64,000 nucleotides of DNA from Pseudomonadota bacterium (GCA_039799965.1 JBDLRS010000011.1:1234-65233), one strand, 5' to 3'; shown: positions 731 to 40,781, numbered from the stretch's first letter. Numbers and translations are program-made. The notes: a model not told the origin generated them from the sequence alone.

Positions 731-2092
731 ATGTCAGAGCAGGTGCGAAAGCTGCCTCAGCAGGAAGCAGCTCAGGACGAGGCAACGGTGCGAGAGCTGC
801 CGATGAAAGATATTCGTTCCCTGATGGCGGAGATCCGTGAGCGGATCAAAGCTGACGTAGAGGGGAATCGCGACAAGAACCGCGAGCTCTGCCGCACCGC
901 TCCTAAGTTCGCAAAAGACGGCAACGTACGGGTAGGGGACCTTCAGCACTCGGAAGAGCTCCGGTACGTAAATCAGAACTACGCCTTTGATTCCCAACTT
1001 ACTCCAGCCGTCATCCCAAGCCACCGACGCGGCCCCCTCGGTAAGCTCGTCCCACTCTTCAAGCGAATCTCTCGCAAGGTTATTCGTAAACTCTTTCTCG
1101 CTGATTACCTGAACGCTGAGCGTTCGTTCTCTGAGCACCTCGTTCGACACCTGAATGAGATCGGTCGATATATCGACGCTCGAGACAACGACGTCATGCG
1201 AAAGATCGATCGCATCGACGATGAGAAGAGCGCCGCCATCCTGGCCTTGCAGCAGGATATGCAGTCTCTGATGAGGGATCGTATAGGCGCCCTCGATGGG
1301 ATGATTCGAGGCTTAGAGGGGATCGTAAACAACTTCCCTCGGTATACCGATCCAAATCCTCCACGGGTTCAAGAGAGCGCGGACTCCCTCGCGGTTCCCG
1401 ATCCATCATATCTTCTCCTTGAGAATCGGTATCGGGGAGGGGAGGCTGAGATCGAGCGAAGGCTTTCTATCTATCCTGAGCTATTCAAAACAGCTCCCGC
1501 TCCTGTGCTTGAGATGGGCTCCGGTCGGGGAGAACTTCAACGCCTCTTCAAGAAAGCTGGGGTTCCATCGTACGGTGTCGATCTCGATACGGTGATGGTC
1601 AACGTCGCGAACGCTGCCGGGTGCGACACGAAATTCGGAGATTGCATCGCGCATCTCCGCTCCCTTCCCGACGGGTCGCTCGGTGGGCTTATCGCGATTC
1701 AGGTCGTTGAGCATCTGACCCGCTCGCAGCTCATGGAGTTGTGTGAGCTCTCCAAGCGCAAGTTGAAGCCGGGGTCAAAGATCGTCTTCGAAACGATCAA
1801 TCCCCAATCGCTCCTCGCGCTCTCCTCCAATTACTTCCGAGATCCAACCCATATCTGGCCGATGCATCCGGACACCCTTGGATACACAGCGACGCTGGCT
1901 GGTTTGAAGATCATTGAGACCCGCTACCTCTCGCCGGTTGCCCCAAATCATCTCCTGAAAGAGATCCCGGTCGATCCGAATCATCCACCAACGGTGGTTG
2001 ATACGGTTAACCGCATTAACCAGAACATCGAGCAGTTGAATCGCTTGATCTACGGCTTCCAGGACTACGCCTTGATCCTTGAGGTAGTGTAA
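731..2092 (+). CDS. class I SAM-dependent methyltransferase with N-terminal coiled-coil region
   Basis: 453 aa. The C-terminal half carries a SAM-binding motif (LEMGSGRGEL...GVDLD...IAIQVVEHL). The N-terminal ~230 aa is charged and heptad-like. It sits directly upstream of two glycosyltransferase genes. Confidence 0.55.
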   Translation: MSEQVRKLPQQEAAQDEATVRELPMKDIRSLMAEIRERIKADVEGNRDKNRELCRTAPKFAKDGNVRVGDLQHSEELRYVNQNYAFDSQLTPAVIPSHRRGPLGKLVPLFKRISRKVIRKLFLADYLNAERSFSEHLVRHLNEIGRYIDARDNDVMRKIDRIDDEKSAAILALQQDMQSLMRDRIGALDGMIRGLEGIVNNFPRYTDPNPPRVQESADSLAVPDPSYLLLENRYRGGEAEIERRLSIYPELFKTAPAPVLEMGSGRGELQRLFKKAGVPSYGVDLDTVMVNVANAAGCDTKFGDCIAHLRSLPDGSLGGLIAIQVVEHLTRSQLMELCELSKRKLKPGSKIVFETINPQSLLALSSNYFRDPTHIWPMHPDTLGYTATLAGLKIIETRYLSPVAPNHLLKEIPVDPNHPPTVVDTVNRINQNIEQLNRLIYGFQDYALILEVV

Positions 2093-2094
2093 CG

Positions 2095-3195
2095 ATGGCG
2101 CGTATTCTCGTCCTTGGAGCTAAGGTTCCCTTTACGCACGGCGGGCAAGAGATCCTCGTCGCTACTTTGATTAAGCACCTCAAAGCGCGAGGGCACGAAG
2201 CGGATGTGATCGAACTTCCATTTAATCCACTTCCGAAGCAGAACCTGCTGATGCAGGCGGCGATCTGGCGCTCCTTGGATCTCGCTGAGTTCGCGGGTGG
2301 CAAGGTTGATCTCATTATCGCGACGAAGTTCCCCACCTACTTTGCGCGTCATCCGAAGAAGAGCGTGTGGCTCGTACACCAGCTCCGCTCATTCTACGAC
2401 CTTCACGGAGGGCAATACTCCGATATGGGTGATGATCCGCGAGACGAGGTGCTGCGCCGAATGATAACCGACGGTGACGCGATCACGCTCGGTGAGTGTT
2501 CGTACCGCTCCGCAATCTCCAAGAACGTAGCGGAACGATTGCAGTCCTATAACGGCTTATCCTCAACCGTACTCTACCCGCCACTTCCGCTTGGAGACCG
2601 ATATCAGAACCGCGGTGCGAAGCCGTACGTTCTCTCTGTGGGACGGCTCTGTCGTATTAAGCGGCTCGACCTGATGCTGAACGCAATGAAGCATATCTCT
2701 CCTGAGGTAACGCTGAAGGTGGTCGGAACCGCCGATGAGCCAGGGGTAATGGAGTATTTCAAAAACATCATCAAGGCGCACGATATCGGCCATCGCGTGC
2801 AGCTCTTAGGACGAGTAAGCGATGAGGCGCTCGTTGCTCTCTACGCCGAGGCGATGGGTGTGTTCTACGCGCCGTTCGATGAGGATTACGGATATGTCAC
2901 CCTTGAGGCGATGGCGAGCGGGCGACCCGTCGTGACCGCCACCGATAGCGGTGGAACGCTAGAGTTTGTGAAGGATCGTGAAAATGGGCGAGTGGCGACA
3001 CCCGATGCCATCGCTATGGCGGAGGCTTTCAACGAACTCGCCCGAGACCCGGAGGCCGCGAAGCGCATGGGAGCGAACGGGAGAGCGTTCATCGAGAGCT
3101 CAGGGATGTTGTCGCAGGGTTGGGACACCTTGATTAACGCGCTTCTCTCTCCACTCACGCACGGGGACGGTTCACAGGCGAGCAAGGCTGCGTGA
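2095..3195 (+). CDS. glycosyltransferase family 4 (GT-B, retaining type)
   Basis: 366 aa. Carries the GT4 C-terminal signature EDYGYVTLEAMASGRPVV (E-x7-E). It starts 3 nt after the upstream methyltransferase gene. Confidence 0.75.
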   Translation: MARILVLGAKVPFTHGGQEILVATLIKHLKARGHEADVIELPFNPLPKQNLLMQAAIWRSLDLAEFAGGKVDLIIATKFPTYFARHPKKSVWLVHQLRSFYDLHGGQYSDMGDDPRDEVLRRMITDGDAITLGECSYRSAISKNVAERLQSYNGLSSTVLYPPLPLGDRYQNRGAKPYVLSVGRLCRIKRLDLMLNAMKHISPEVTLKVVGTADEPGVMEYFKNIIKAHDIGHRVQLLGRVSDEALVALYAEAMGVFYAPFDEDYGYVTLEAMASGRPVVTATDSGGTLEFVKDRENGRVATPDAIAMAEAFNELARDPEAAKRMGANGRAFIESSGMLSQGWDTLINALLSPLTHGDGSQASKAA

Positions 3196-4514
3196 TGGCT
3201 GACACCAAGCTTCGCATCGCGTGGGTTACCCATCTCGCTCGGTCGAATGAGCCGGTTGCCTCGATATCGCAGTACTGCTCGGATCTGCTCCTTCCTCAGA
3301 TGAAGGATGAGTTCGAGATCGAGGTGTTCTCGGGGCTGCCGTTTGGAAGCCACCTCGGCCTGCCACGGTACAACACCCTAAACGTGTATCAACGTCACCG
3401 CGCGAAACCCTTCGATATCTTCTTCTATCAAGTCGAGGATGGACCTCTTGGAAGGATCGTTCGAACACAGGTCGGAATGATGCCGGGAATATCGTGGATG
3501 CACGACACATTTCTTTCAGACCCCGGCGCGGAGGGTATTCATACCAGTCCGTGGGAGCGGTCCGTTCAGCAGATGCTCGACCTCTCTCTGCCATTCCTTG
3601 AGCGAGGCGATCTTCCCCTTCAGCCACAGCCGCAAGGGTATCGAGAAACCTCGATCTCACCGATCGTACTCTATAACTCTACATGGGCTGAAGGTACCCT
3701 TCGCCGATTCCTCTCGGGGCGATACGAGTACGCGCCGTGTGGTCACCGTTCGGACACACTGCCGGTGCCGGTGACCGTGATCGAGGACGCCCGCTCTGCA
3801 GATACGATGAGGCCTTTTGAGATCGTCGCGGTGAGCTCAACCGGTCTGGAGGGCCGAGCCCATAAGTTCCTTCCCGCTCTCGCGGATTGTTCGCATTCCG
3901 TTCATCTCACCTGGGTCATCGAACCATCGGAGCGAGCAGATGCGGAGCGGATGATCGGTGAATTCGGTGTGCGCGATCGTGTGACCCTTAGTGAGGGCAA
4001 TGCGCCGGATCGATGGCGATCCCTCGTTGCGAAGAGCGATCTCGCGCTTCATCTCTCCTCGAATCCTCATACCCGTCTAAGCCCCTATCTGGAGCTCTCA
4101 ATGGCGGCCGGTGTCGCGACCGTTGTGATGCGTGTCGGGCGAGGGGAGACGATCTCAGACGATGTCGCGTTCGTAATTGAGCCAGGGCTCCACGAGACCT
4201 CGCAGCTTGTCGGACTTTTTGAGGCGGTGCGTCAGGGGGATAGTCGTCTGTTCGGACGCGCGGGGCAGGCTCTCGTTAAAGATAGCAACGATCCTGCGCG
4301 AATCGCTGCGCGACTCTCCTCGATGTTTCGGGAGAGCGCTCCGCTGCTTGCTGATGTTATGCGCGCATGGCAAAGGCTTTACTCACGCGCTGAGGAGGCG
4401 CTTCTTGAGGAGATTCGAGAGCTCGTGGACGCGCCGACGGGTGGAATGCCGGGGGCCTATGAGATGATTGTTAGGCCGTTCGTTGAGGAGATGCGGCGCG
4501 GGGTGAAAGGCTAG
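3192..4514 (+). CDS. divergent GT4-like glycosyltransferase (degenerate E-x7-E motif)
   Basis: 440 aa. Its start overlaps the stop of the upstream GT4 (ATGA). The N-terminus LRIAWVTHLARSNEP resembles a GT4 N-domain. The C-terminal SPYLELSMAAGVATVV retains only the second Glu of the motif. Confidence 0.4.
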   Translation: MMADTKLRIAWVTHLARSNEPVASISQYCSDLLLPQMKDEFEIEVFSGLPFGSHLGLPRYNTLNVYQRHRAKPFDIFFYQVEDGPLGRIVRTQVGMMPGISWMHDTFLSDPGAEGIHTSPWERSVQQMLDLSLPFLERGDLPLQPQPQGYRETSISPIVLYNSTWAEGTLRRFLSGRYEYAPCGHRSDTLPVPVTVIEDARSADTMRPFEIVAVSSTGLEGRAHKFLPALADCSHSVHLTWVIEPSERADAERMIGEFGVRDRVTLSEGNAPDRWRSLVAKSDLALHLSSNPHTRLSPYLELSMAAGVATVVMRVGRGETISDDVAFVIEPGLHETSQLVGLFEAVRQGDSRLFGRAGQALVKDSNDPARIAARLSSMFRESAPLLADVMRAWQRLYSRAEEALLEEIRELVDAPTGGMPGAYEMIVRPFVEEMRRGVKG

Positions 4515-8145: not shown

Positions 8146-8174
8146 CCGATGTGTGAGCCCAGCTAGGGAGGGAG

Positions 8175-8194
8175 GGCGACCGTCCTCGGTCGCC
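8175..8194. terminator. GC-rich hairpin (GGCGACCG-TCCT-CGGTCGCC), REP-like, 30 nt after dapE stop
   Basis: 8-bp perfect stem with a 4-nt loop, read directly. No T-tract follows. The same motif recurs at 40663 and, inverted, at 56607. Confidence 0.4.
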
Positions 8195-8349
8195 GTGATC
8201 GTAACGCGCAGCTGATGTCTTTGTTGCGATATTGTGGCGAGCGAGGACCCAACTTTGCCACGCTACGGCGTGCGACCTGGTAGCTCTCCGGATGTGCGAT
8301 CCCTGAGAGGGTAAACTGAAGATCTAAGTCTCATGTGTTGTTTTTTGCC

Positions 8350-9699
8350 CTATAACGACCGCAAAAACGTGATCAGTGCCCCCCGTTCTACCGCCGCACT
8401 CTCCTTGAACCTCGACTGCGCGCCACTCGCTTCTCCCCCATGCCACAGGATCGCCTCTTCCAAACTTCGCGCTCGTCCATCGTGAAGGTATGTTGCGGCT
8501 CTTCCGTTGAGCACTTGTTCGGTGAGACCGATTCCCCAGAGCGGCGTAGTTCTCCATTCCGACCCGGTCGCCGTAAAATCTGGTCGGTGATCGGCTAGTC
8601 CCTCTCCCATGTCGTGAAGGAGAAGGTCTGTGAAGGGATGGATGGTTTGTTGCGAGAGTGCGGGGTGGCTACCGCTGCCCGTTGTGAGCGTCGGCGTATG
8701 ACACGAGTGACACCCGAACTGTGAAAACAGTGTGCGACCACGCATGACCGTCGGGTCGTTTTGGTCGCGCGCCATCGGTACTCCGAGGGTCGCGGAGTAA
8801 AATGTGGTCGCGTCGAGGATTGCGGCGGATATATCGGGAGCTTTGGAGCCCCTCTTGAACAGGGGATTTGTAATTCCCATATCGGTCGCGTAGGCCGCGG
8901 CGACTTGTTGTCGCAGGGTGGGTGAGGAAGCTTTGAACCCGAAGCGTCCGATGGTCATTGATCTAGTTTGTAGGTTCCAAACCACATTCGCTCGTCCTGA
9001 GATCCCATCACCGTTCGTGTCTGCAGGGTCCGCTCTACTCAGGATCTCCGTGTCGGATACCGCGTCGAGGAGCCCGGAGCCAAAGACAGGTGGTGCTCGT
9101 CGAAGTGAGGTGAGTGTACCACGAGGGATAACGGGTTGAGGTTTTGTGAGCTTCACCGTTGGAGCGCGAAGGGTGTAAGGCGTGCCATCATTGTAGGCCT
9201 CGGCCTCGTTTCTCCATAGCAATCGAACGACCGCTTCTGGGTGATGTGGCGCTACTCCGTGATCCCGAATCTGGAGGCCGATGCCAGGGACCGGTATCGG
9301 ACCCCCATGTGGTGAGGCTTTCCCTCTTGGAAGGCTCACCTTCACCACGGTGTCGCTCCCGATGGCACGGCGAGTAACCCGTAACGCTCCTCGTCCGTTA
9401 CCTCCGTGACAGCTCACGCACGATGGCGCGTTGAAGGTTGGACCGAGGCGTAGCGCTCCGCGGATCTTTACGCGACCGAAGTTCCTTAAAAATCCGGTTT
9501 GTCCCACCTCGTGAAGGGCAACTGCGGCAGCGTCGTTGAGGTTGGGCGCAATACGATCATAAGCCCTCGGCGAAGAGTCACTGACGGTAGTGTCGCCTCC
9601 TTGCATCGTTACATCGTCATCGAGCGCGAAAGAAGCCGGAGCCGCATATGCCAAAAGCGCCACAATGAGCGCAGAGCGCGCGGGATGTATCGGCCTCAT
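8350..9699 (-). CDS. secreted di-heme cytochrome c peroxidase-like protein (two CXXCH; DUF1111-type)
   Basis: 449 aa. Has a signal peptide MRPIHPARSALIVALLAYAAPASFA. The two heme-binding motifs are CVSCH and CHSCH. Confidence 0.6.
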   Translation of the reverse strand: MRPIHPARSALIVALLAYAAPASFALDDDVTMQGGDTTVSDSSPRAYDRIAPNLNDAAAVALHEVGQTGFLRNFGRVKIRGALRLGPTFNAPSCVSCHGGNGRGALRVTRRAIGSDTVVKVSLPRGKASPHGGPIPVPGIGLQIRDHGVAPHHPEAVVRLLWRNEAEAYNDGTPYTLRAPTVKLTKPQPVIPRGTLTSLRRAPPVFGSGLLDAVSDTEILSRADPADTNGDGISGRANVVWNLQTRSMTIGRFGFKASSPTLRQQVAAAYATDMGITNPLFKRGSKAPDISAAILDATTFYSATLGVPMARDQNDPTVMRGRTLFSQFGCHSCHTPTLTTGSGSHPALSQQTIHPFTDLLLHDMGEGLADHRPDFTATGSEWRTTPLWGIGLTEQVLNGRAATYLHDGRARSLEEAILWHGGEASGAQSRFKESAAVERGALITFLRSL

Positions 9700-10075: not shown

Positions 10076-10687
10076 GAGAATAGTGTAGGCACCTCCGGAT
10101 CTGCGGAGGACCGCGAACCAGTCACTTTTGCCAGTAGGGTTAAGATAGAAGGGGATATCCTTTCCGCGTACCCCGAAATCAAAGTAGGATCAAGGGCACC
10201 ACACTCAATGACGGACCCTCGGGCTATTGAGAAATAGCGCCGTTTATCGGCTTGTTTGAGCTTGCCTGTCTTTTCCCCATGCGAGGAGTATACCGGACTT
10301 GGAGAATGTGCGCGATCCTTTATCTTCAAAACTGTCCCATGTATGTACCTAACGGGCTATAAATATCGATCGCTGGGGCAGAAAGTTGCTAGATCGGGTA
10401 CGTTTACGCGGAAATACGCGATTCATCACTGAAACAATGGGTTATGCACCATCAGCAGTCATGTGGTGCCCACTCGATTCCAGGATGAGCCCTCTTCATT
10501 CACTCGTTCTGGCCGGAAGCGCTGCGCTCACCGGGTGCCTCTTTAAGCCTGACCTCGGAAGACCCTATACCCGCGAAAATTTCGTTCATTCCGGGCCTGT
10601 TGGGAAACGGGCACTATCAGATTGCGTGCGTATGTTCTGATCCCCCTCACACGCACACCCGTCTCGCCGCGCTATACTTTGAGATCT

Positions 10688-11251
10688 ATGCCATACTTCA
10701 CCGCCGTTCGCGCCCTCGCCGTTTCCCTCTCAGGAGCGATCTTCATGCTCGCAGCTCCGAGCGTCTATGCCGAATCCGCCCAAGAGCTTCAACGTTCCTC
10801 TCGGCAGGCGCTACAGGAGCTCTATCGCACGACTCCAGCAGCAGCCGCTCTCGGTGAAAAAGCCGCTGGTGTTCTCGTGTTCCCGGAGATTATTAAGGGT
10901 GGTTTCGTCGTCGCGGCGCAGTATGGAAACGGAGCGCTCTTCAAACGGGGCGAGGTCGCTGGATACTACAACACAACCTCAGCTTCGTTTGGTTTCCAGG
11001 CCGGAGTGCAGAAATTTGGTTATGCCCTCTTCTTCATGACCGAGAATGATCTGAGGTACCTTACTCGATCGGACGGGTGGGAGATCGGAGCTCTTCCGAG
11101 TCTCACTATCGTTGACACCGGTGTGGCGCGCTCCCTTTCAACGACAACCTTACAAAAGGGGATGTACGCGTTCTTCTTTGGTCAGAAGGGTTTGATGGGC
11201 GGGCTCTCTCTTCAGGGAACAAAGATCACCCGTATTCATCCTAATACGTAG
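10688..11251 (+). CDS. lipid-binding SYLF (Ysc84/DUF500) domain protein, secreted
   Basis: Internal ATG at 10688 gives signal peptide MPYFTAVRALAVSLSGAIFMLAAPSVYA. SYLF-like core: GGFVVAAQYGNGALF...GFQAGVQKFGYALFFM. Confidence 0.6.
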   Translation: MPYFTAVRALAVSLSGAIFMLAAPSVYAESAQELQRSSRQALQELYRTTPAAAALGEKAAGVLVFPEIIKGGFVVAAQYGNGALFKRGEVAGYYNTTSASFGFQAGVQKFGYALFFMTENDLRYLTRSDGWEIGALPSLTIVDTGVARSLSTTTLQKGMYAFFFGQKGLMGGLSLQGTKITRIHPNT

Positions 11252-11596
11252 GGATGCTTCTTAACCAAGATTCTCATCTCCCCTCATACATTTGCAATTC
11301 ACTGTGGTAACTATACAAAGAAGCTGACGGAGGATCGCCAAGTGCGTGTATCTCCACACCCTGAGAGCAAACTGAGGCGAGTGTCCTAACCACAACAGCG
11401 GGAATTACGACGCTGCCGTGGGGTTGGTAAGGATACCGGCTCATCCCATGAGGGTCGATAGGCTTGTGGTGCTCTGGAGACGGTGACAGTCTCAGTTCAT
11501 CGGGGATTTAGGCCTGACTTTCAAGGCCGGATTGGGTAAGGTGATTGGCGTGATATCAGAGATTGTGACGCCGAGATACCAGGGGAAGGTACGGTC

Positions 11597-13246: not shown

Positions 13247-13265
13247 TCCCGCTAAAAAAGAATGG

Positions 13266-13393
13266 CTATTCGTGAAATCGAGTGGGTAGGGCTCGGTGTG
13301 ATCCCAACGTGCACGTGGAAAGGCGCTATGTATAGGCCAAAGCAAGGGGTTACGTTACACCTATGCTCGTTGGCATCCAGTCGATTCCACGAA
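13266..13393. repeat. R2 MITE-like repeat, copy A (about 128 bp, imperfect TIR CTTCGTGRAATCGASTGG)
   Basis: Aligns by eye to 15021..15168. The shared core is TCGTGAAATCGAGTGGGTAGGGCTCGGTGT-ATCCC-ACGTGCACGTG...GCCAAAGCAAGGGTTTACGTTAC...GCTCGTTGGCA. Confidence 0.6.
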
Positions 13394-13629
13394 GAGCCAC
13401 AAAAAAATCAACAGGTGCTGCGAGCCTTTTGTCGTAAAACGAGTGTAGCATTATTTTCCTTACGGACTATGGAGTAGCTCGGGTACAGCGGTCTGACCAA
13501 AAGTAGCCCCGCTACGGAGTAAAGGGAAATACGGAGCAAAGGGAAAAGGATGTTGCGCCACAATAGCGATCGCAGCATGGTAAGGGTGCCGTACCGGATC
13601 AGAGGACGAACAGCGTAAGGGGCATATGC

Positions 13630-14892
13630 ATGGAACCTAGCGGGGTGATGAAACGAAACGTGTTGTGTAAATCTATCGAGGCTGTAGTTTCGATATCAGC
13701 TTCATTTATTCAATTAGCTATCATCGCTCGCTCATTTGATCCTGTTGTTGTTGGCCACTATCAGTTCGCGCTTGCGTGGCTCTTCTTAGTCTCTGCGCTT
13801 TCATGCTTCGGCGGGATAGCCATGGTAGCTACACGAGAGCTTTCACAGAGGGGGGAAACTTCGCGCGGCTCACTTTTCTCCAACGCTGTCGCTCTCCAAT
13901 CGTTGATCGCTGTTCCACTCTGCGTTGGCTGTCTCTCGATATTCTTCAACTCAGCTTATTTTAGGCCCCTTGCTCTACCACTCAGTATCGGTACCATCAC
14001 GCTTTGTTGCGCGATGATTCTTCAACTATCTCAGGCGTTGCTGGTGAGCGAGGAGAGGATACCGAACGTAGTAATCGCATCAATCATCGGACACGGTGTA
14101 GCCACCTGCGCCATTATAGGTGCTGCATCCTATGGACTTTCAGTCACCGCTCTTGTAGCGGGATGGGCCACGTATAACGCCATCAACGGCATCGTACTTG
14201 TATTCCAGGCGAGCGCGTGGCGGTTGCTTCCACTGCGGTATGTTGCAATGGCCGATTTGCGGGGCTTAACCCTCGAAATGCTGCCGGTTTTAGTCATGAT
14301 TCTGGCCACCCATTTGTATGTTCGCGTTGACGTCATTATGCTCGATCACTACACAAACAAAGGGGAAGTAGCGACGTATAGTGCGGGATATGTGTTCCTT
14401 GATCAGCTCATGATCCTTTCACAGGCGATGATGGGTGCCGTATTTCCTAATTTCGCTCGCGCCTGTGTGACCCGAGGCCCGGATTTTCAGGTTCTTTACC
14501 GCGGAACAGTGGTGTTGTTTTTGAAATACCTGGTTCCCCTCGCCCTCCTCATAGCTCTTTTCTCTCAATCCTTGCTCGGAGTACTATTTGGAGCGGAATA
14601 TTCGACCGCCTGGCTCTCGTTGTCGGTGCTCATGATCGCTGCTGTGTTCGCCTGGCTGAACGGCCCCTCAGGTACGATCTTTATCTCGCTCAAAAAGCAG
14701 CACATCTACATGTGCGCAACCCTCCTCAGCCTGGGCATCAATATCGTTGGGAACGTCCTCTTTATTCCCTATCTTGGTGGTGTTGGGGCGGCGGTCTCAA
14801 CTGTTTTAACTGAGATGACTATTTGTGGATTTTGCTTGTGGTGGATTTATCGAGAGACGGGATACCTCCCCTGGATGCGTCCACGATTGTGA
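13630..14892 (+). CDS. polysaccharide biosynthesis protein, MOP/Wzx-family flippase-like polytopic membrane protein
   Basis: 420 aa with about 12 hydrophobic segments. The overall pattern is that of oligosaccharide flippase/PST-family proteins. Confidence 0.55.
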   Translation: MEPSGVMKRNVLCKSIEAVVSISASFIQLAIIARSFDPVVVGHYQFALAWLFLVSALSCFGGIAMVATRELSQRGETSRGSLFSNAVALQSLIAVPLCVGCLSIFFNSAYFRPLALPLSIGTITLCCAMILQLSQALLVSEERIPNVVIASIIGHGVATCAIIGAASYGLSVTALVAGWATYNAINGIVLVFQASAWRLLPLRYVAMADLRGLTLEMLPVLVMILATHLYVRVDVIMLDHYTNKGEVATYSAGYVFLDQLMILSQAMMGAVFPNFARACVTRGPDFQVLYRGTVVLFLKYLVPLALLIALFSQSLLGVLFGAEYSTAWLSLSVLMIAAVFAWLNGPSGTIFISLKKQHIYMCATLLSLGINIVGNVLFIPYLGGVGAAVSTVLTEMTICGFCLWWIYRETGYLPWMRPRL

Positions 14893-15020
14893 TGGGATAT
14901 CGCTCCGGCACATCTCTCAATCGACCCAGAGTGCCTGCCCCGTCCTGTAATGGGGCCGCATCCAGCGCGGGGAAAACAGGGGGGCCTTTCCTGGAATCAC
15001 GTGGGTAAAATAAGTAGGGA

Positions 15021-15168
15021 CTTCGTGAAATCGAGTGGGTAGGGCTCGGTGTTATCCCGACGTGCACGTGCACGTTCACGTTCACGTGGAAAGGGAGCTA
15101 TGCCTGAGCCAAAGCAAGGGTTTACGTTACCTCTGTGCTCGTTGGCACCCACTCCATTCCTCGATAAG
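15021..15168. repeat. R2 MITE-like repeat, copy B, with expanded CACGTG/CACGTT hexamer tract
   Basis: Direct-orientation match to 13266..13393. Carries an internal (CACGTK)n expansion at 15071..15097. Confidence 0.6.
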
Positions 15169-15292
15169 CCAATAAGTAACTCATTGGAGCCTGGTCGCAG
15201 GTTTAAGTAAAAAGATAGGCCGTTGAATCTTTTGAAGTCACCATAACTCGTATGGCGACCCTGCAAGAAGCAGTTCATCGATACGAGAGCAA

Positions 15293-18200
15293 ATGACTAA
15301 GGCATCGTTTAAACATAGAAATGCCCAATCAGAGTCCCTGTATCCTCACGGAGTTTCTGACCTACGTGCGACATCCTTTACTCAACGGGATGCACAAGCG
15401 TTTGCGCGCGACCTTCCACAAGGGTTACGTCGTGTGCGGGCAACCCACAACAGCGCTCTACGGCGTCACGAGCAGGGGGATATCAGCCGTAAGGAGCTGG
15501 TGAGCATAGCGATGGAATTTCGGAACTATGCTGACGAGATCCGCCAAGGTGGACGCGGATCCTTTGTAAAGGTCAGCCGCAAAATTGAGAGTATGGCATC
15601 CGCCTTGGAGAGGCTCTCTCGGGCAGATCTCGGGCCAAGCTCCGTGCGACCGTTGTCTGAGATCCTGACCCCGGAGATAGACTTATTGCTACGCAAAGTG
15701 GCCGCGAGTGAAGCCGTTCAAAAGGCTTTGAATACCGGAAATGCTGGAATTGCCCACCAGCACCTGAGGCGCTCTTCTCGCTACGCAAAAACGCCTTCGG
15801 GGAGCACGGTTATCTTTTTAGCGAGTCTCGAAAGTGGAAGACGGGCGCTCGTTGATTACTCAAAAGAGACCAGATGCGAAGCGAAGGCGATGGTTGTGGC
15901 CATGACCCCACCGAATGGACCCACCCTCCTTACTCATTACTTGCCCCGACCGCCCGGGTTGCATATAGCCCTTGATGCCGGGGGGCTTAAAGTTCGTGTG
16001 GAGCAGGTCAAATCTCAGCTTGAGTTCCTTGCTGCTTATCATGAAGCTCGCGAGGGGTATGTTGCCCAAAATCGCGAACAGTTACAGACGATCGCTCGTA
16101 GGGAGGGGCGAGAGGACCTGGCATGCTCTCCAGAGTCGATTGATGCGATTATTCGATCTGCGTTTGGCCTCTCTGAAGGATACTTGAGCCTTTGGAGCTA
16201 TGCCAACATCGTGGGGTATTACCCCTTAGTTTCGGAGGAAGTTAAGGATCTGATAGAAGCCGTCTCACCTAGAGGCTTGGACTATCTCTCGAAACACACC
16301 ATTGCTGCATTAGCTCAAGGTAGGTCCCCCGATCTTGAGGATCCCGAATCACGACAAGCACTCACGAAGCAACTCCTGACTCAGCCTTGGAGCAGCATCT
16401 CAACCCCGTTGTCAACTTACCATCTTTGGAAACTAGAGGACCATATCGATACCAGCGTAGCTCCCGACTCGACATGGTCCGTGGCGACCGTGTGGGCACA
16501 TGTACATCCGTTTTTGAGCACAGTAGTCCCGCAGAGCTTTGAAGATGTTGTCCCCGATGGATACAACATCTTCAGCGCCACTGACGTTTTGAGAGCTATC
16601 GGTGCGCAAGGCCTACCTAGTTTCATTTCGAATGCCATCAGTGACGTGACAGGTTGGCTGAAGCGTTATGAACAAAAAAATAAAGCTCACTCGAAGAGTA
16701 TAGATATGGCGCGCACCCTGCTCGAGGAGGGGGAAAACCGCGAGGGATTTGCCACCCTCGATCGAGCCGTCCAAGATGTTCTCGAGTTTCGCTCGGCGAT
16801 ACAGACTAAACGCCAATTCGCTAGCTCTGAATCTGCGCGGTTGTCTTTTGAGATTGACAAACATGAACTGCTACTCTCCCGCACTCGCGATGAGATACAG
16901 CAAGGTAAGGTCGTACTGCGATTATTACAAGAAGCCAAGAATGCAGAGGATATTATCGGTGCACTTTTTCATGGGTTATGGCCAGGTGGAACTTTCGGAG
17001 AGAGCCAGCGCGACATGTTTAATCGCCGATGGTACCATGCTCAGTACCAAAGCGGCTCGCAGAAGCCATCGATCTCCATAATCGAGAACCCGTTTGGATC
17101 TTTTTATGCCCTCGGAGACGGCGATAGCGGCTTAACGAACCAACGCTACGAGGGACCGGGTGAAAGTCGCACGCCAACTGTGCGGGAAACTATGTGGCTC
17201 CATGGCGATCGATTGTCGGCCGTGGAGATAGTTATGTCGCATGACGCCAAGATGCAAAAGATTCCTCAATCTATCTGCGACATGGTGATCCTCGATCAGG
17301 TGTCCGGTAGTAGACGTTTCGCTGTTCGTCCCCCCAGCTCTTTGGAGTGGCTCATAACCAAGCGCACCTCAGCCGTAGAAGCGGCGCTGGGGCACCAGAT
17401 TCCAATCAGCACGCGAATGGTTGGAGATGTCCCGTACACCTTTGTGGAGTGGCCAAATTCCGGGACACTTCAACCTGAGAGCATCCGAAAGATACTAAAG
17501 CTCTCGGAGGAATTCGCCATCGATTCGTGGAAATTGCTTACGAAATTCGACCGCTTCTATCGGGCCGCCCCTCATTACGAGAAGATCAATCCTCTCCACG
17601 TACATATGCCGCGTGTCTGCATTAAAGACCCGAAACTTATGGAGGAGTATCTCGGTGCAGCGAGCGCCATCTCGGATCAAGCGCAGGATCTGCCCAAAGC
17701 GCTAGCTTCGCTGTTGAGGATAAGCGAGAACAGGGGTGAGACCTCGGTGGAAGTACGGTGTGCAGTCTGCTTCATTACACATGCACTCGCCCTCTTCTCG
17801 TCACATGCCGAAGAGGGTAATCGCACCGCAATCATCCTGCGTCTGATGCTCAACTCAGAGGAGTTTCTCTGTTCCTTGAAAGAGGCTATCGCGTCCGAAT
17901 CTTTTTATTTTCGGACTTTTGAAGCGTGGGAAAAAAAACTCACGTCCTTCTTCCTTGAGGAGTACGCAGGTTGCCTCGAAACAAAGCTGCACGAAGCAGG
18001 GGTATTCGACGGCATCCTGGTGGTCAAGGCTGCGGAGGTAGCATGTCAAGGCTCTGGTGAAGATGGCGCTACGTTCATCACAGCCGTGCAACAGGAGCCG
18101 CCTACACGGGTGACTGTTTCGGTCGATATAGACCGATTTTTGCGTGCTTTTAACGATGCATACCCCATATTCGCGGACGCATTGCGTCGTTTTAGCCCAG

Positions 18201-18484
18201 TTGTTGATAAGAGCGATACCTTTCCCCGTGCAAGGCAAGGTGACACTTCGTATCTTCAGATAAGAGAGGAGCTTTTTGCCACTCTTAATAACCACGACTT
18301 CGAGACCGAGCTGCCGAACCGGTTGACCACTCTGCGTCAGAGAGGTTTGAGCTTGCGATTTTGGGATCTGGCTATCGGCCCGGGGGATGACCATGCGGCA
18401 GTAGCCAAGTTCAATCAAGCACTTCTCAAGTCGCTTGGCCTCCTCTGTTACTCGACTGATGAGCGCCCCTTCCGCTGCCGATGA
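15293..18484 (+). CDS. large hypothetical protein (1063 aa) on AT-richer DNA, no recognisable domain
   Basis: Single long ORF with no strong antisense ORF. No signal peptide, Walker, HExxH or repeat motifs were found by eye. Composition is visibly AT-richer than the flanks. Confidence 0.5.
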   Translation: MTKASFKHRNAQSESLYPHGVSDLRATSFTQRDAQAFARDLPQGLRRVRATHNSALRRHEQGDISRKELVSIAMEFRNYADEIRQGGRGSFVKVSRKIESMASALERLSRADLGPSSVRPLSEILTPEIDLLLRKVAASEAVQKALNTGNAGIAHQHLRRSSRYAKTPSGSTVIFLASLESGRRALVDYSKETRCEAKAMVVAMTPPNGPTLLTHYLPRPPGLHIALDAGGLKVRVEQVKSQLEFLAAYHEAREGYVAQNREQLQTIARREGREDLACSPESIDAIIRSAFGLSEGYLSLWSYANIVGYYPLVSEEVKDLIEAVSPRGLDYLSKHTIAALAQGRSPDLEDPESRQALTKQLLTQPWSSISTPLSTYHLWKLEDHIDTSVAPDSTWSVATVWAHVHPFLSTVVPQSFEDVVPDGYNIFSATDVLRAIGAQGLPSFISNAISDVTGWLKRYEQKNKAHSKSIDMARTLLEEGENREGFATLDRAVQDVLEFRSAIQTKRQFASSESARLSFEIDKHELLLSRTRDEIQQGKVVLRLLQEAKNAEDIIGALFHGLWPGGTFGESQRDMFNRRWYHAQYQSGSQKPSISIIENPFGSFYALGDGDSGLTNQRYEGPGESRTPTVRETMWLHGDRLSAVEIVMSHDAKMQKIPQSICDMVILDQVSGSRRFAVRPPSSLEWLITKRTSAVEAALGHQIPISTRMVGDVPYTFVEWPNSGTLQPESIRKILKLSEEFAIDSWKLLTKFDRFYRAAPHYEKINPLHVHMPRVCIKDPKLMEEYLGAASAISDQAQDLPKALASLLRISENRGETSVEVRCAVCFITHALALFSSHAEEGNRTAIILRLMLNSEEFLCSLKEAIASESFYFRTFEAWEKKLTSFFLEEYAGCLETKLHEAGVFDGILVVKAAEVACQGSGEDGATFITAVQQEPPTRVTVSVDIDRFLRAFNDAYPIFADALRRFSPVVDKSDTFPRARQGDTSYLQIREELFATLNNHDFETELPNRLTTLRQRGLSLRFWDLAIGPGDDHAAVAKFNQALLKSLGLLCYSTDERPFRCR

Positions 18485-18614
18485 AGTGGCGTACCCCGCA
18501 AGATCTCATGTTTCTGTTTCTCAACCGCCAGAGATCCTCTGTAGGGCTGAGTAAGTTCCTCGTATAAGGGCGATCCTTATCTGCGGGTTGCAATTTCTCC
18601 GCCCTGCTAGGGTG

Positions 18615-19340
18615 TCACTCTATTGACTCTTTAAAATAATTGTCACAGGCACTAAAGCATTCTTTATGCCACTTGTTAGCGATTTGCTTCTCTTGTTCCG
18701 TAGATGCCTCAGCTGAAAACTCATTCGCATACTGAGTACAGAGAGCATAACAAAGTTCGTACTTGTTCATGCCAGTTGCAACTGTCACGAGTACTTCGTA
18801 AGCCAAGTTCATATCCCTAAATACCATTTGAGCCACCGTCCAGGGCCTGGATATACTTTTATGGACTGCCTCAACCGGCTCAAAGCTACATTCACACCCT
18901 GTAGTTCTTTCCTTACTGGTTGCTGTAGGTCCGCATCCTTCAGGTGGCATGGTTTTCTTGCCATCATCAAGTTCTGAACAAGGGAATGGGGGGCCAAACA
19001 CAAAGTCTTGCGTGCTCGTCGGATTCGCTACTATACACCGACCTCCATCTAATCGAACTACGACTACAGCATGACCAGCACCTTCACAATACATCTTGTA
19101 TATCTGACAATTGAGTCCCCATTCGCCGCACCTTCTCTTAAATCCATTGGCATAATCTCCACAAATATTATACGCATTGTATGGACCCAGCTCTCTATGA
19201 ACTTCATTCGTTAAGCTATAAATCAAGCAGTTGCTGGGTTCCGCCGCTGCAGTACCCGTATCTGCATGTGCCACGATAGGGGGGCAAAGTAATGCTATGC
19301 ACAGGAGCCTCAAGTTATTAAGCATTGTATGTTTAATCAT
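18615..19340 (-). CDS. secreted Cys-rich protein with transglutaminase-like cysteine peptidase motifs (BTLCP/LapG-like candidate)
   Basis: ATG at 19340 gives signal peptide MIKHTMLNNLRLLCIALLCPPIVAHA. Motifs NICGDYANG (C-x-D-Y-A) and GHAVVVVRLDGG match the Cys and His boxes of the TG-like fold. This is the most AT-rich stretch of the window. Confidence 0.4.
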   Translation of the reverse strand: MIKHTMLNNLRLLCIALLCPPIVAHADTGTAAAEPSNCLIYSLTNEVHRELGPYNAYNICGDYANGFKRRCGEWGLNCQIYKMYCEGAGHAVVVVRLDGGRCIVANPTSTQDFVFGPPFPCSELDDGKKTMPPEGCGPTATSKERTTGCECSFEPVEAVHKSISRPWTVAQMVFRDMNLAYEVLVTVATGMNKYELCYALCTQYANEFSAEASTEQEKQIANKWHKECFSACDNYFKESIE

Positions 19341-19529
19341 CGTAGCCTGACCTATTCTCTGACGTTGCTCCGGCAGGTGCATGTCTATTTGAAAACCTAG
19401 CCCTGAGTTACATGAACGTCATTTCGATCGCCGAGCTTTAGCCCTTTTATTCGAAAGGAAACTTTTTTGGTCCAGGATCTTAAGTTCACAAGCGCCAAGG
19501 CCGACTCTCCTTGTGAGGAGAAGAAAGGT

Positions 19530-20129
19530 ATGGTGCCACAAAACGTAGGACCGGCGGAGATGCTCACGTTCGGAATATTAGTCGGAGCCATGGGCCTCGG
19601 TCTCGTTGTTGGGATCGTGTACAAGCTTTTTGCGGGAGCTCGGAGCCCAGGTTTTGTGTCCGGGGAACGAGGTCGAGCTGAGGCTTTGTTGAACGATTTC
19701 TCCGGCAGGATATCACTGATCGAGCATAAGCAACGCGTCCTGAGTGTCTACACTAACGAATACTTTACAACCTTCCATGAAGCGGGGTGGGGAGAGCTCC
19801 AAGCGCTCATAGAAAATCTTAGGACGATTGAAACATCGCTTCGAGTTATGTGTGAGCAGCGTCGTTTCAGACAAGTGGTTCAGGTGTGTCAGTATCTGTT
19901 GGGTTCGTGCTCTCCGGAGTCAGCTCGTGCGATTGTTACCGCGTACGAGGGGCTCTCCTTGGTCGCGAATTGGCGCGAGGAATCGAGGGTTATTCTTCTT
20001 CGACTCATTCAGGCTACAACTACTTCGGCCGAGAAAACCGCGGAGTTTGGTGTCACACGAAAGCGCATGACTCGCAGGCCAACCCTGCTGTCCCTTGCAG
20101 AGCTTAGAGATTCGCTCGGTGATTTTTAA
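19530..20129 (+). CDS. hypothetical single-pass membrane protein
   Basis: One N-terminal TM segment (MLTFGILVGAMGLGLVVGIVYKLFAGA) followed by a soluble domain. The start is uncertain (19467 or 19530). Confidence 0.3.
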   Translation: MVPQNVGPAEMLTFGILVGAMGLGLVVGIVYKLFAGARSPGFVSGERGRAEALLNDFSGRISLIEHKQRVLSVYTNEYFTTFHEAGWGELQALIENLRTIETSLRVMCEQRRFRQVVQVCQYLLGSCSPESARAIVTAYEGLSLVANWREESRVILLRLIQATTTSAEKTAEFGVTRKRMTRRPTLLSLAELRDSLGDF

Positions 20130-20274: not shown

Positions 20275-21723
20275 TTAGTCGCGCTCAAAAAGCATCTGCT
20301 GTCGCTTGGGCTTAATCTGCACAGGCGTGCCGGCTGGATAGTTTCCGGAGAAGCATGCGTCGCAGTATCTCCCTTGGTTCGACTCAACGGCGCGATAGAG
20401 CCCCTCGGTAGAGAGGTAGGCTAGGGAATCAACACCGATATACTCGGCTATCTCCTGAATCGAGTGTTTAGAGGCGATCAGCTCGTGTTTATCGGGGGTG
20501 TCGATACCGTAGTAACACGGACTAGTTGTTGGGGGGGACGAGATGCGGAGGTGAATCTCTCGTGCTCCAGCTTGCCTGAGCATAGCAACGAGCTTCCTGC
20601 TCGTGGTTCCTCGAACGATAGAGTCGTCGACCACTACGATCGACTTACCCGCAAGAACGTCACGATTCGGGTTAAGCTTAATCTTTACTCCGAAATCCCG
20701 GATAGATTGCTTCGGCTCGATAAAGGTTCTACCCACATAGTGGTTTCTGACGAGCCCCATCTCATAGGGGAGTTTCGCCGCTTCGGCGTAACCGATAGCT
20801 GCCGCCACGCCGGAGTCGGGAACAGCGGTTACAAGGTCTGCCACTACTGGTTTCTCAAGAGCGAGCTCTCGACCCATGTTCTTGCGGAGCTGGTACACGT
20901 TCTTGCCGAATACCTTCGAGTCTGGACGAGCAAAGTACACGAACTCAAAGATACACGGAGCAGGACGTGAAAAACCAAAGGGGAAATAGCTCTTCATCGA
21001 TCCATCGCGGAACACTTCAATGAGCTCACCCGGTTCTACCTCACGGAGGTAGGTCGCGCCGATAAGGTCAAATGCGCATGTTTCTGAAGCAAATACCTTC
21101 GCGCCGTTAAGCTCTCCGATCGCGAGGGGCCGGAGGCCGTGCATATCGCGACACACCATTAGGCGGTCCTCAAAGAGCATAAGCAGCGAAAACGCCCCCT
21201 TAATCTTTTGGAGCGCAGCGATGACGGACTCTACGAGGGGCTGATCTTTATCGCCGTGGGCGAGAAGATGCAGAATGGTCTCGGTGTCTGAGGTCGAGGC
21301 GAAGATAGAGCCCTGCTCAATCAGTTCACGGCGAAGATCGTCGGCGTTGGTGAGGTTGCCGTTGTGTGCGACCGCGGTGTGTCCAAGTGCAATATCGGCG
21401 ACGAACGGTTGAACGTTCGCGAGGCGATTTCCACCCGCGGTGGTGTATCGAACGTGCCCGATAGCTATGGCTCCCTGAAGTTTCGTGAAGTCAAAGCTGC
21501 CAAAGACATCAGCGACCAGGCCGAGACCCTTGTGAACATAGAAGTGGGGCAGGTCATCTCCATTTCGGTCAACGGAGACAACGCCGGCGCCTTCTTGGCC
21601 GCGATGTTGTTGCGCGTAGAGGCCAAGATAGGTCAGGTTCGCTGCCTCAGGGTGGTTCCATACCGCCATGAGACCACATTCGTCGTGAAACTTATCTTCG
21701 CTGAACATAACCCTATGCCTCAA
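20275..21723 (-). CDS. purF: amidophosphoribosyltransferase
   Basis: 482 aa. N-terminal Ntn Cys ([16 protein letters not shown]...). C-terminal PRTase motif ([12 protein letters not shown]) and FeS cysteines. Confidence 0.9.
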
Positions 21724-40628: not shown

Positions 40629-40662
40629 TAGGATGATACCTTGCTCGATCCAGTGTACGGGA

Positions 40663-40711
40663 GGGCGACCGTCCTCGATCGCCGGAATTCATACCCGGAG
40701 GACGGTCGCCC
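40663..40711. terminator. long GC-rich hairpin (GGGCGACCGTCCTC...GAGGACGGTCGCCC), REP-like, 35 nt after rocD stop
   Basis: 14-bp stem with about 21-nt loop. Shares the GAGGGCGACCGTCCTC motif with 8172..8196. Confidence 0.4.
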
Positions 40712-40781
40712 CGTGATGTCGCGGCTACAATCAGGTTGCGCAGTAGCCCGTTGCGCATTAGCCCGTTGCGCAGTGGCCCCC

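What the first reader, a model, noticed from the sequence alone, without database searches (positions are those of the whole stretch)
15293..20129. Compositionally atypical (AT-richer) island encoding a 1063-aa orphan protein, a secreted TG-like peptidase candidate and a small membrane protein
By eye, 15.3-20.1 kb is clearly less GC-rich than both flanks. The 18.6-19.5 kb stretch is the AT-richest DNA in the window. The island is bounded on the left by the R2/flippase cassette and on the right by purF. Its three ORFs have no housekeeping identity and are arranged convergent then divergent. This pattern fits a horizontally acquired effector/adhesion-type module.
Basis: partly seen in the sequence, partly recalled or inferred. 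Interest (0 to 1): 0.65.

Follow-up and report, generated by a model that had tools for sequence, protein, structure and literature searches.

The report
Patchwork of orphan genes beside purF
The AT-richer stretch is real, but it is a patchwork of three unrelated, separately inherited genes at a gene-order breakpoint in an uncultured freshwater Bdellovibrionota genome, not one imported effector module, and only the small secreted cysteine-rich gene looks clearly foreign.

Summary
The composition claim holds in part. Region 15293-20129 has GC 0.514 against 0.548 for the window (1.5th percentile). Region 18.6-19.4 kb is the AT-richest DNA (GC 0.453, GC3 4.8 SD low). The anomaly has two foci: ORF2, and the flippase cassette left of the stated boundary. 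The body of ORF1 has a near-typical tetranucleotide signature.

The three ORFs have three separate histories.
- ORF3 (199 aa, single-pass membrane protein) is a conserved lineage gene with 25 homologues. In five relatives it sits in clpB-ORF3-fliL-thrCBA. Here it has been relocated.
- ORF1 (1063 aa) belongs to a very rare family, with about 10 members among 1.84 billion cluster representatives. It has no known domain. Each homologue lies in a different context, and one host appears distantly related.
- ORF2 (241 aa) has no homologue anywhere. It has a signal peptide and 16 cysteines.

No tool supports a transglutaminase-like peptidase, an adhesin or an effector. There is no integrase, tRNA or boundary repeat pair. 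The spoVR-prkA-purL-purF block is syntenic in all relatives and ends exactly at the purF stop codon. Each relative carries different genes beyond it, including housekeeping genes.

Verdict: an ordinary variable locus with dark-matter genes, of modest interest.

The parts
15293..18484 (+). ORF1: a 1063-aa protein with no signal peptide and no TM segment, mostly helical. It belongs to a very rare uncharacterised family.
   Evidence: The start (MTK) and the full length are conserved in 3 homologues at 54, 39 and 39% identity. A profile search of 1.84 billion representatives gave only 12 hits, including distant members P0040, P0044 and P0045. The 7-sequence alignment has the invariant polar residues R183, E196, Y216, H403, H405 (HxHP), S571, D574, N599, D651 and E784. 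No Pfam, NCBIfam, PADLOC, PHROGs or PDB match was found. The Kyte-Doolittle scan found no TM segment. GC is 0.528 and GC3 is 0.553.
18615..19340 (-). ORF2: a 241-aa ORFan (the longest ORF reaches 19382 and gives 255 aa). It is predicted to be Sec-exported and is cysteine-rich. It is the AT-richest gene in the window.
   Evidence: The only database match is itself. GC is 0.453 and GC3 is 0.416, -4.8 SD. Its in-frame codon log-likelihood (-4.268) is the lowest in the window, but the annotated frame still scores best of the six. The N-terminus MIKHTMLNNLRLLCIALLCPPIVAHA|DTG has a hydrophobic core and an AHA cleavage motif. There are 16 Cys, including a twin CX3C (C197/C201 and C228/C232) on two predicted antiparallel helices. 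The AF2 model is poor (pLDDT 50.4) and Foldseek found nothing with E below 0.3.
19530..20129 (+). ORF3: a 199-aa single-pass (N-terminal TM) protein. It is a conserved lineage gene that has been relocated in this genome.
   Evidence: There are 25 homologues at 47-75% identity, all 188-200 aa. In five relatives the order is clpB-ORF3-fliL-thrC-thrB-thrA. None of those neighbours is in this window. The TM segment lies at residues 8-37 or so. Homology with relatives starts about 65 nt upstream of the ATG (near 19465) and stops at the stop codon. It is not FliL-like.
18485..18614 (.). 130-bp convergent intergenic spacer between ORF1 and ORF2.
   Evidence: Read directly. The simple scan found no convincing intrinsic terminator.
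19341..19529 (.). Divergent spacer between ORF2 and ORF3. The ORF3-proximal ~65 nt are conserved with relatives, including the RBS.
   Evidence: Alignment A2.
15018..15171 (+). MITE-like repeat, copy B, in the 400-bp spacer upstream of ORF1. It forms the left edge of the finding.
   Evidence: It is a direct repeat of 13262-13405: 96% identity over 49 nt and 80% over 81 nt. It has terminal inverted repeats of about 25 nt and folds into a long closing stem. An independent assembly breaks inside it, at 15131.
13262..13405 (+). MITE-like repeat, copy A, upstream of the flippase.
13630..14892 (+). Wzx/MOP-type flippase, bracketed by the two repeat copies. It is the second focus of atypical composition.
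   Evidence: Pfam Polysacc_synt at 3.4e-15. GC is 0.509 and GC3 is 0.557. The tetranucleotide minimum at 13.0-15.5 kb has z -3.3.
20275..21723 (-). purF: the right-hand anchor and the end of the conserved spoVR-DUF444-prkA-purL-purF block.
   Evidence: The block is syntenic in L011, L012, L014, L017 and L018. L013 and L016 show only purL-purF, and L015 lacks purL. DNA and protein homology with the closest relative, L010, ends at window 20274/20275, the purF stop codon.
10622..11251 (+). Ysc84-domain gene: the left-hand anchor shared with the closest relative, L010.
   Evidence: It is 83% identical to L010 5936-6508, in the same relative orientation. L010 has 4.65 kb (a P-type ATPase and a DAHP synthase) between it and purF. 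The window has 9.0 kb there.

Best explanation
The segment is a mosaic at a recurrent gene-order breakpoint next to the conserved purF-purL-prkA block of an uncultured freshwater Bdellovibrionota genome. It holds three independently transcribed genes with three different histories.

(1) ORF3 is a vertically inherited, lineage-specific, N-terminally anchored membrane protein. It moved here, with about 65 nt of its own upstream region, from its usual clpB-fliL neighbourhood.

(2) ORF1 is a stand-alone member of a very sparse family of 800-1300-aa, largely helical proteins. The family has conserved His, Asp, Glu, Ser and Asn residues, including an HxHP motif. By inference this suggests an enzyme, possibly metal-dependent. 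It has no Sec signal here, so it is probably cytoplasmic or exported by a non-Sec route. Its patchy spread across unrelated contexts, and apparently across distant hosts, suggests an old horizontal acquisition that has largely taken on the host's composition.

(3) ORF2 is a strain- or species-specific gene. It was either recently acquired from an AT-richer donor or is very fast-evolving. By inference it encodes a Sec-exported, disulfide-stabilised periplasmic or extracellular protein, with an alpha/beta core followed by a twin-CX3C helical hairpin.

Shown: the composition, the distribution, the synteny and the lack of known domains. Inferred: subcellular location, enzyme character and the direction of transfer.
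For: Composition
- The anomaly has two foci, and the ORF1 body is near typical.

ORF3
- It is conserved in 25 relatives and lies in clpB-ORF3-fliL-thrCBA in 5 contexts. Those neighbours are absent here.
- The boundaries of the moved block are mapped.

ORF1
- It has 3 close and about 3 distant homologues among 5.8 billion and 1.84 billion sequences.
- Each homologue has different neighbours.
- In L002 the homologue has the same GC3 as its contig. That host's PEPcase is only 29% identical to the window's, while ORF1 is 39% identical.
- Invariant polar residues are found in A4.

ORF2
- It has no homologue and is absent beside ORF1 homologues.
- GC3 is -4.8 SD.
- It has a signal peptide and a characteristic Cys pattern.
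- The annotated frame is the best of six.

Synteny
- The block ends exactly at the purF stop codon, and each relative has different content beyond it, including LeuRS and TrpRS.
- L014 is collinear from purF to the methyltransferase/glycosyltransferase cluster, but with 2.5 kb of other genes in place of the window's 15.7 kb.

Mobility and assembly
- There is no tRNA, integrase or IS element, and no plasmid or phage match.
- The junctions are confirmed by an independent, 100% identical assembly.
Against: - The closest available relative is only about 81% identical in purF DNA. Presence/absence therefore cannot separate insertion here from loss or rearrangement elsewhere.
- Only one contig of this genome is visible. 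A second ORF3 copy at the clpB-fliL locus cannot be excluded.
- The host-distance argument for ORF1 rests on one marker, PEPcase, which could itself be xenologous.
- The structural models are poor (pLDDT 48.8 and 50.4), so the functional statements for ORF1 and ORF2 are weakly grounded.
- There is no expression evidence for ORF2.
Confidence: 0.6

Rival explanations
1. One horizontally acquired island delivers a functional effector or adhesion module made of a large effector, a secreted TG-like peptidase and a membrane partner.
For: - It is the lowest-GC 4.8-kb stretch of the window.
- All three ORFs lack a known family.
- None of the three lies next to purF in relatives.
- ORF2 has a signal peptide and a C60...H90...N106 pattern on a helix followed by strands, which resembles a papain or transglutaminase core by eye.
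- One distant ORF1 relative, P0044, has an N-terminal hydrophobic signal-like segment.
Against: - ORF3 is a conserved lineage gene with a different home locus.
- ORF2 never accompanies ORF1 homologues.
- The ORF1 body has a near-typical oligonucleotide signature.
- No integrase, tRNA or flanking repeats are present.
- Pfam finds no Transglut_core or any peptidase family, even at E<=1.
- Foldseek and PDB give nothing.
- The InlB-repeat resemblance in ORF1 fails hhalign (probability 6.9%).
Confidence: 0.08
2. Nothing here is foreign. All three are native, weakly expressed or fast-evolving lineage genes. The lower GC reflects relaxed codon selection, and ORF2 is a young or de novo gene or a rapidly diverging surface protein.
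For: - The native ORF3 has the same GC3 (0.555) as ORF1 (0.553) and the flippase (0.557).
- ORF3 homologues are at or slightly below the GC3 of most neighbours in relatives too.
- The synonymous-codon log-likelihoods of ORF1 and ORF2 (-1.227, -1.219) lie about 1.3 SD below the mean, alongside the di-haem oxidoreductase gene (DHOR, window 8350-9699) at -1.231.
- Gene order in this lineage is fluid everywhere beyond purF.
- There are no mobility genes.
Against: - ORF2's GC3 is 4.8 SD low, and GC1 and GC2 are low as well. That is hard to reach by relaxed selection alone.
- ORF1 is missing from the other Bdellovibrionota loci and databases apart from a handful of scattered contigs. It appears in a host with only 29% PEPcase identity.
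Confidence: 0.25
3. This is an assembly or binning artefact, with a chimeric join of unrelated DNA inside the MAG contig.
For: The composition shifts, a repeat sits at the left edge, and an independent contig ends inside that repeat.
Against: An independent Logan assembly is 100% identical over 13,354 bp. It spans ORF1, ORF2, ORF3, purF, purL, prkA and DUF444, and runs into spoVR. JGI contigs up to 52.6 kb carry the same ORF1.
Confidence: 0.03

Closest known systems
Flexible or replacement genomic regions (variable loci between conserved anchor genes) in bacterial populations
   Same: - The anchors are conserved: purF on one side, and Ysc84 or the glycosyltransferase cluster on the other.
- Gene content between the anchors is completely different in each relative.
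- The region holds ORFans, a Wzx flippase and small repeat elements.
- Its composition is atypical.
   Different: - No integrase, tRNA or att repeats are present.
- The contents include housekeeping genes (glpD here, LeuRS and TrpRS in relatives) and a relocated core gene.
- The comparisons are between species (~80% DNA identity), not strains. Ordinary rearrangement explains much of the pattern.
Transglutaminase-like / papain-like cysteine peptidases (e.g. Pfam Transglut_core PF01841, BTLCP-type secreted proteins)
   Same: ORF2 is small and secreted. It has a Cys on a predicted helix, followed by a His and an Asn on successive predicted beta-strands (C60, H90, N106).
   Different: - No HMM match to any such family.
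- No structural match.
- The third residue is Asn, not Asp.
- The Cys lies inside the predicted helix, not at its N-terminus.
- The model has low confidence.
- The 14 mature-chain cysteines suggest structural disulfides rather than a catalytic thiol.
Twin CX3C / disulfide-stapled helical hairpin proteins (own knowledge: small Tim proteins; compare the Cys-lined helical bundles of Csp copper storage proteins)
   Same: The ORF2 C-terminus has C197-x3-C201 and C228-x3-C232 on two predicted antiparallel helices, with register-matched spacing. The weak top Foldseek hits are to Csp (probability 0.66, E 0.3).
   Different: The hits are not significant and there is no sequence homology. ORF2 is a bacterial secreted protein with an extra N-terminal alpha/beta domain.
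Large orphan hypothetical proteins of predatory or uncultured Bdellovibrionota (metagenomic dark-matter families)
   Same: ORF1 is annotated as a hypothetical protein in the NCBI MAG (MEN9845084.1, locus RIS36_231). It has no domains and a narrow distribution.
   Different: The family is conserved along about 1000 residues, with invariant polar residues. It occurs in apparently unrelated hosts, which is unusual for a purely lineage-specific orphan.

Membership tests
Horizontally acquired genomic island (integrative) | Composition differs from the host genome across the whole element. | tested here: inconclusive
   The region as a whole is in the 1.5th percentile for GC. ORF2 is extreme, at -4.8 SD in GC3. 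The ORF1 body is near typical in tetranucleotide signature (z -0.7). The native ORF3 is as low as ORF1.
Horizontally acquired genomic island (integrative) | Mobility hallmarks: integrase or transposase, tRNA or other att site, flanking direct repeats. | tested here: not met
   The only tRNA lies at 37.4 kb. No integrase or IS family appears in the genes scanned. The only repeat pair brackets the flippase, not this segment.
Horizontally acquired genomic island (integrative) | Absent from the same locus in close relatives, with intact flanks. | tested here: inconclusive
   The segment is absent beside purF in relatives L010-L018. Each relative has different genes there, and the nearest is only 81% identical in DNA.
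Horizontally acquired genomic island (integrative) | The cargo is inherited as one unit. | tested here: not met
   ORF3 sits in clpB-fliL context in relatives. ORF1 homologues lack ORF2 and ORF3 neighbours.
Transglutaminase-like cysteine peptidase (ORF2) | Significant match to a family profile (Transglut_core or a related papain-like clan). | tested here: not met
   Pfam and NCBIfam returned 0 families at E<=1 and E<=0.1 respectively.
Transglutaminase-like cysteine peptidase (ORF2) | A Cys-His-Asp triad, in order, on a helix N-terminus and two adjacent strands. | tested here: inconclusive
   C60, H90 and N106 lie on predicted H54-73, E90-97 and E101-107. The model pLDDT there is 54-67, the third residue is Asn, and the Cys is not at the helix start.
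Transglutaminase-like cysteine peptidase (ORF2) | Fold similarity to solved members. | tested here: not met
   Foldseek against PDB gave no hit with E below 0.3 and no peptidase or transglutaminase among the top 50 apart from one DUB at E 2.7. The model has low confidence.
Sec-dependent secreted protein (ORF2) | N-terminal signal peptide with a positive n-region, a hydrophobic core and an AXA cleavage site. | tested here: met
   The sequence is MIKHTMLNNLRLLCIALLCPPIVAHA|DTG. The Kyte-Doolittle window peaks at residue 6 (1.67). No dedicated predictor such as SignalP was available.
Listeria-Bacteroides repeat / InlB B-repeat (Flg_new) surface-protein domain (ORF1 residues ~700-750) | Profile similarity to the repeat. 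| tested here: not met
   The repeat proteins P0041 and P0043 surfaced only by summing 7-8 weak matches. hhalign gave probability 6.9%. ORF1 has no Pfam hit.
Protein kinase-like fold (ORF1) | Significant structural match plus the conserved Lys, Glu, Asp, Asn and Asp catalytic residues. | tested here: not met
   Many kinases appear among the top Foldseek hits, but all have E>=0.35, TM<=0.22 and rmsd 9-33 A (mostly 15-25 A), on a model with pLDDT 48.8. The family has no invariant Lys.
FliL family (ORF3, because of its conserved fliL neighbour and equal size) | Profile similarity to FliL. | tested here: not met
   hhalign of A6 against A7 gave probability 0.3%. There is no Pfam FliL hit.
Anti-phage defence systems or phage proteins | Match to PADLOC or PHROGs models. 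| tested here: not met
   No hit was better than E 0.027.

The most novel reading that the evidence does not exclude
The ORF1 family defines a new class of large enzyme. It has about 10 members among 1.84 billion cluster representatives, runs 800-1300 aa, and has invariant R, E, Y, HxHP, S, D, N, D and E residues. It could be a toxin or effector that moves horizontally between distant bacterial lineages as a single-gene cassette. In L002 the homologue is bracketed by 83-nt direct repeats. In the window a MITE-like element sits just upstream. ORF2 would then be a separate, newly acquired secreted cysteine-rich factor.
Probability: 0.15. Interest if true: 0.5.

Novelty: new member of a known kind. 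Interest (0 to 1): 0.25.

Why it matters
This case shows that a by-eye low-GC island can be a composite. Here it combines a relocated core gene, an old and patchily distributed orphan, and one truly foreign-looking ORFan, all beside a rearrangement hotspot. The practical value is modest.

- It flags a very rare, full-length-conserved protein family (ORF1) with enzyme-like invariant residues.
- It flags a secreted disulfide-rich ORFan (ORF2) in uncultured freshwater Bdellovibrionota. Both are candidates for structural and functional study.
- It documents that the 3' end of purF is a recurrent synteny breakpoint in this lineage.

Nothing here challenges existing concepts.

Tried and rejected
Searches on the three ORFs and on ORF1 homologues
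- Pfam, NCBIfam, PADLOC and PHROGs gave nothing significant.
- PDB sequence searches with single sequences and with profiles A1, A4 and A6 gave only chance-level hits: HSP90 at E 0.0056 in a poorly conserved charged region, and a FimV C-terminal motif at E 0.05.

Structure prediction
- AlphaFold2 gave pLDDT 48.8 for ORF1 with 4 sequences, and 50.4 for ORF2 with a single sequence.
- Foldseek against PDB gave no significant match for either. The cluster of kinase hits for ORF1 and the Csp hits for ORF2 were rejected as insignificant.

Other tests
- The InlB B-repeat lead in ORF1 was rejected by hhalign.
- ORF3 as a FliL paralogue was rejected.
- Two metagenome-contig scans for more ORF1 loci found nothing.
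- DNA for the P0003 and P0008 contigs could not be fetched. The partial neighbour seen in L090 shows no likeness to ORF2.
- tblastn against plasmids (ORF1 and ORF2) and phages (ORF1) found nothing.
- Rfam and tRNA scans found only tRNA-Pro at 37.4 kb.
- Promoter and terminator scans were at background level.
- One literature search found nothing specific.

Full report
OBSERVATION

The window averages 0.548 GC, and region 15293-20129 is 0.514. Only 1.5% of equally long windows are that low, and the global minimum (0.511) starts at 15101. ORF2 (18615-19382) is 0.453 GC. The lowest 768-bp window of the whole 64 kb starts at 18621 (0.452), and the next lowest elsewhere is 0.492.

The anomaly is uneven, however. 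GC3 values are ORF1 0.553, ORF3 0.555, the flippase outside the stated region 0.557, and ORF2 0.416. The mean over 45 ORFs is 0.617 with SD 0.042. In a tetranucleotide-signature scan, all 12 least-typical 2.5-kb windows fall between 12 and 21.5 kb. There are two minima, at 13.0-15.5 kb (the flippase and its repeats, z -3.3) and at 18.0-21.0 kb (centred on ORF2, z -3.35). The body of ORF1 (15.5-18.5 kb) scores z -0.7.

ORF2 has the worst codon log-likelihood in the window (-4.268). Its annotated frame is still the best of the six.

WHAT THE GENES ARE

ORF1 (1063 aa) has no Pfam or NCBIfam family. It has no TM segment.

- Only three non-self homologues exist among 5.8 billion clusters: P0002 (54%), P0003 (39%) and P0004 (39%). 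They align from the shared MTK start to the C-terminus, and the window copy lacks about 90 residues near the C-terminus.
- An exhaustive profile search of 1.84 billion representatives adds only fragments and three distant members: P0040 (785 aa), P0045 (805 aa) and P0044 (1317 aa, with an N-terminal hydrophobic segment). None of these has a Pfam domain.
- Across all seven sequences the invariant polar residues are R183, E196, Y216, H403, H405 (HxHP), S571, D574, N599, D651 and E784. This pattern suggests catalysis, but that is an inference.
- The AF2 model is poor (pLDDT 48.8). Foldseek against PDB gives nothing below E 0.35, and the many kinase chains among the top hits have TM <=0.22 and are disregarded.
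- PDB profile searches, PADLOC, PHROGs and tblastn against plasmids and phages are all negative.
- A resemblance of residues ~700-750 to the Listeria-Bacteroides repeat fails hhalign (probability 6.9%).

ORF2 has no homologue other than its own database entry.

- It most likely starts at the ATG at 19340, giving 241 aa, as in the NCBI and Logan gene calls.
- It begins with a classical signal peptide ending AHA|DTG.
- It has 16 cysteines. These include C197-x3-C201 and C228-x3-C232 on two predicted antiparallel helices, which I read as a disulfide-stapled hairpin.
- The TG-like idea rests only on C60, H90 and N106 lying on a predicted helix and two strands. Pfam finds no peptidase or transglutaminase family even at E<=1. 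PDB sequence and Foldseek searches are empty, and the model has pLDDT 50.4.

ORF3 is different in kind.

- The 199-aa form (ATG at 19530, preceded by GAGGAG) has 25 homologues at 47-75% identity and of near-constant length. They share an N-terminal TM helix and a highly conserved C-terminal domain.
- In five independent relatives it lies in clpB-ORF3-fliL-thrC-thrB-thrA. None of those genes is in this window.
- Homology with relatives begins about 65 nt upstream of the ATG and stops at the stop codon. The gene therefore moved with its own leader.
- It is not a FliL paralogue and has no PDB relative.

CONTEXT

The window is a contig of an NCBI MAG labelled Pseudomonadota bacterium, with locus tags RIS36_231-233. 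By PurF its nearest relatives are freshwater Bdellovibrionota MAGs.

The block spoVR-DUF444-prkA-purL-purF is conserved in L011, L012, L014, L017 and L018. L013 and L016 show only purL-purF, and L015 lacks purL. With the closest relative, L010 (96% PurF identity, 81% DNA identity), homology stops exactly at the purF stop codon, window 20274/20275.

Beyond purF, every relative differs:

- L010 has a P-type ATPase and a DAHP synthase, then the Ysc84 gene. That is 4.65 kb, against 9.0 kb in the window.
- L012 has LeuRS and an integrase fragment.
- L013 has hypothetical genes and an EEP nuclease.
- L014 has a hypothetical gene and a class Ib (Trp/Tyr-type) tRNA synthetase. These are followed, collinearly, by the methyltransferase/glycosyltransferase cluster found at window 731-4514.
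- L015 has a pyruvyl transferase and a K+ channel.

The 3' end of purF is thus a recurrent synteny breakpoint. Absence of the segment in relatives does not by itself show insertion.

ORF1 homologues sit in unrelated neighbourhoods:

- L002: Fur and CobW upstream, ABC exporters downstream.
- L003: LysR and TauE.
- The P0003 contig: GNAT and fumarase.

None of them has an ORF2- or ORF3-like neighbour. In L002 the homologue has the same GC3 as its contig. That host's PEPcase is only 29% identical to the window's, whereas ORF1 is 39% identical. This hints at transfer between distant hosts, but it rests on one marker.

No tRNA, integrase, IS element or bounding repeats occur at the segment. An independent assembly is 100% identical across all the junctions, which excludes a chimera.

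INTERPRETATION

The best reading (about 0.6) is a mosaic at a rearrangement hotspot:

- ORF3 is a relocated native gene.
- ORF1 is an old, patchily distributed single-gene acquisition or relic that has largely ameliorated.
- ORF2 is a recent foreign or very fast-evolving secreted, cysteine-rich ORFan.

The coherent effector or adhesion module is not supported (about 0.08). A fully native explanation, with relaxed or young genes, remains possible (about 0.25). Its main difficulties are ORF2's extreme composition and ORF1's scattered hosts.

Function remains inferred:

- ORF1 is a soluble, multi-domain, probably enzymatic protein.
- ORF2 is an exported, disulfide-rich protein.
- ORF3 is a membrane-anchored protein of a conserved lineage family.

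NOVELTY AND SCORE

This is an ordinary variable locus carrying dark-matter genes that are already deposited as hypothetical proteins. The ORF1 family is very rare and well conserved, which gives it some value as a structural-genomics target. Nothing here is mechanistically surprising. Interest is 0.25.

Noticed in passing
window 13262-13405, 15018-15171; solo arm 10469-10503: A MITE-like element of about 135-150 nt with imperfect terminal inverted repeats of about 25 nt. Two direct copies bracket the Wzx-type flippase (49 nt at 96% identity, 81 nt at 80%). Both copies fold into a long closing stem (z -4.0 and -2.5). Copy B carries an (ACGTKC)n insert. A third, solo inverted-repeat arm lies upstream of the Ysc84 gene. 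The independent Logan contig starts inside copy B.
   Followed up: partly
window 13630-14892: The Wzx/MOP flippase is as compositionally atypical as the finding itself (GC 0.509; tetranucleotide z -3.3 for 13.0-15.5 kb). It stands alone, far from the other polysaccharide genes at 0.7-4.5 kb and 59.5-61.5 kb. It is absent beside purF in all relatives.
   Followed up: partly
L004, L006-L009, L092 (ORF3 homologue loci): ORF3 defines a conserved, uncharacterised 199-aa single-pass membrane protein family. In relatives it is invariably wedged between clpB and fliL. Its C-terminus...RKPTLLSLAELRDSMGDF, is nearly invariant. It has no Pfam or PDB relative.
   Followed up: partly
L002 9573-9655 and 14958-15040: An 83-nt direct repeat (84% identity), 5.4 kb apart, brackets the ORF1 homologue P0004 and three small ORFs. 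It may be a cassette boundary or a duplicated promoter.
   Followed up: no
window 8170-8195, 40657-40715; L010 6585-6682: A GC-rich hairpin motif, GGGAGGGCGACCGTCCTCGGTCGCC, recurs at gene 3' ends. At 40.7 kb it has an inverted partner. It is shared with the relative L010. It looks like a REP-like or terminator element.
   Followed up: partly
window 11318-11349 vs L010 3977-4008: A 32-nt stretch is 94% identical between two non-homologous intergenic spacers, downstream of Ysc84 here and upstream of the DAHP synthase in L010.
   Followed up: no
window 731-4514 vs L014 13930-17704: The methyltransferase, GT4 glycosyltransferase and 440-aa unknown cluster lies 2.5 kb from purF in L014 but 15.7 kb away here. 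The dapC-like, dapD-like and M20 genes, the di-haem oxidoreductase, Ysc84 and glpD all lie inside the lineage-variable interval.
   Followed up: partly
window 41923-44202: A 759-aa protein has weak matches to T4SS coupling protein (TraG/VirD4) and HerA-type ATPase domains. It lies next to a saccharopine-dehydrogenase-like gene and has no other conjugation genes nearby.
   Followed up: no
JGI sample 3300059473 (contigs of P0003 and P0008): Two ORF1 homologues from different 90%-identity clusters, each about 39% identical to the window, come from the same metagenome on different contigs. They represent either two hosts or two paralogues.
   Followed up: no
window 14997-15278 (-): This 93-aa ORF upstream of ORF1 is largely made of the MITE-like repeat and has no homologue in the fetched loci. 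It is probably not a gene.
   Followed up: partly
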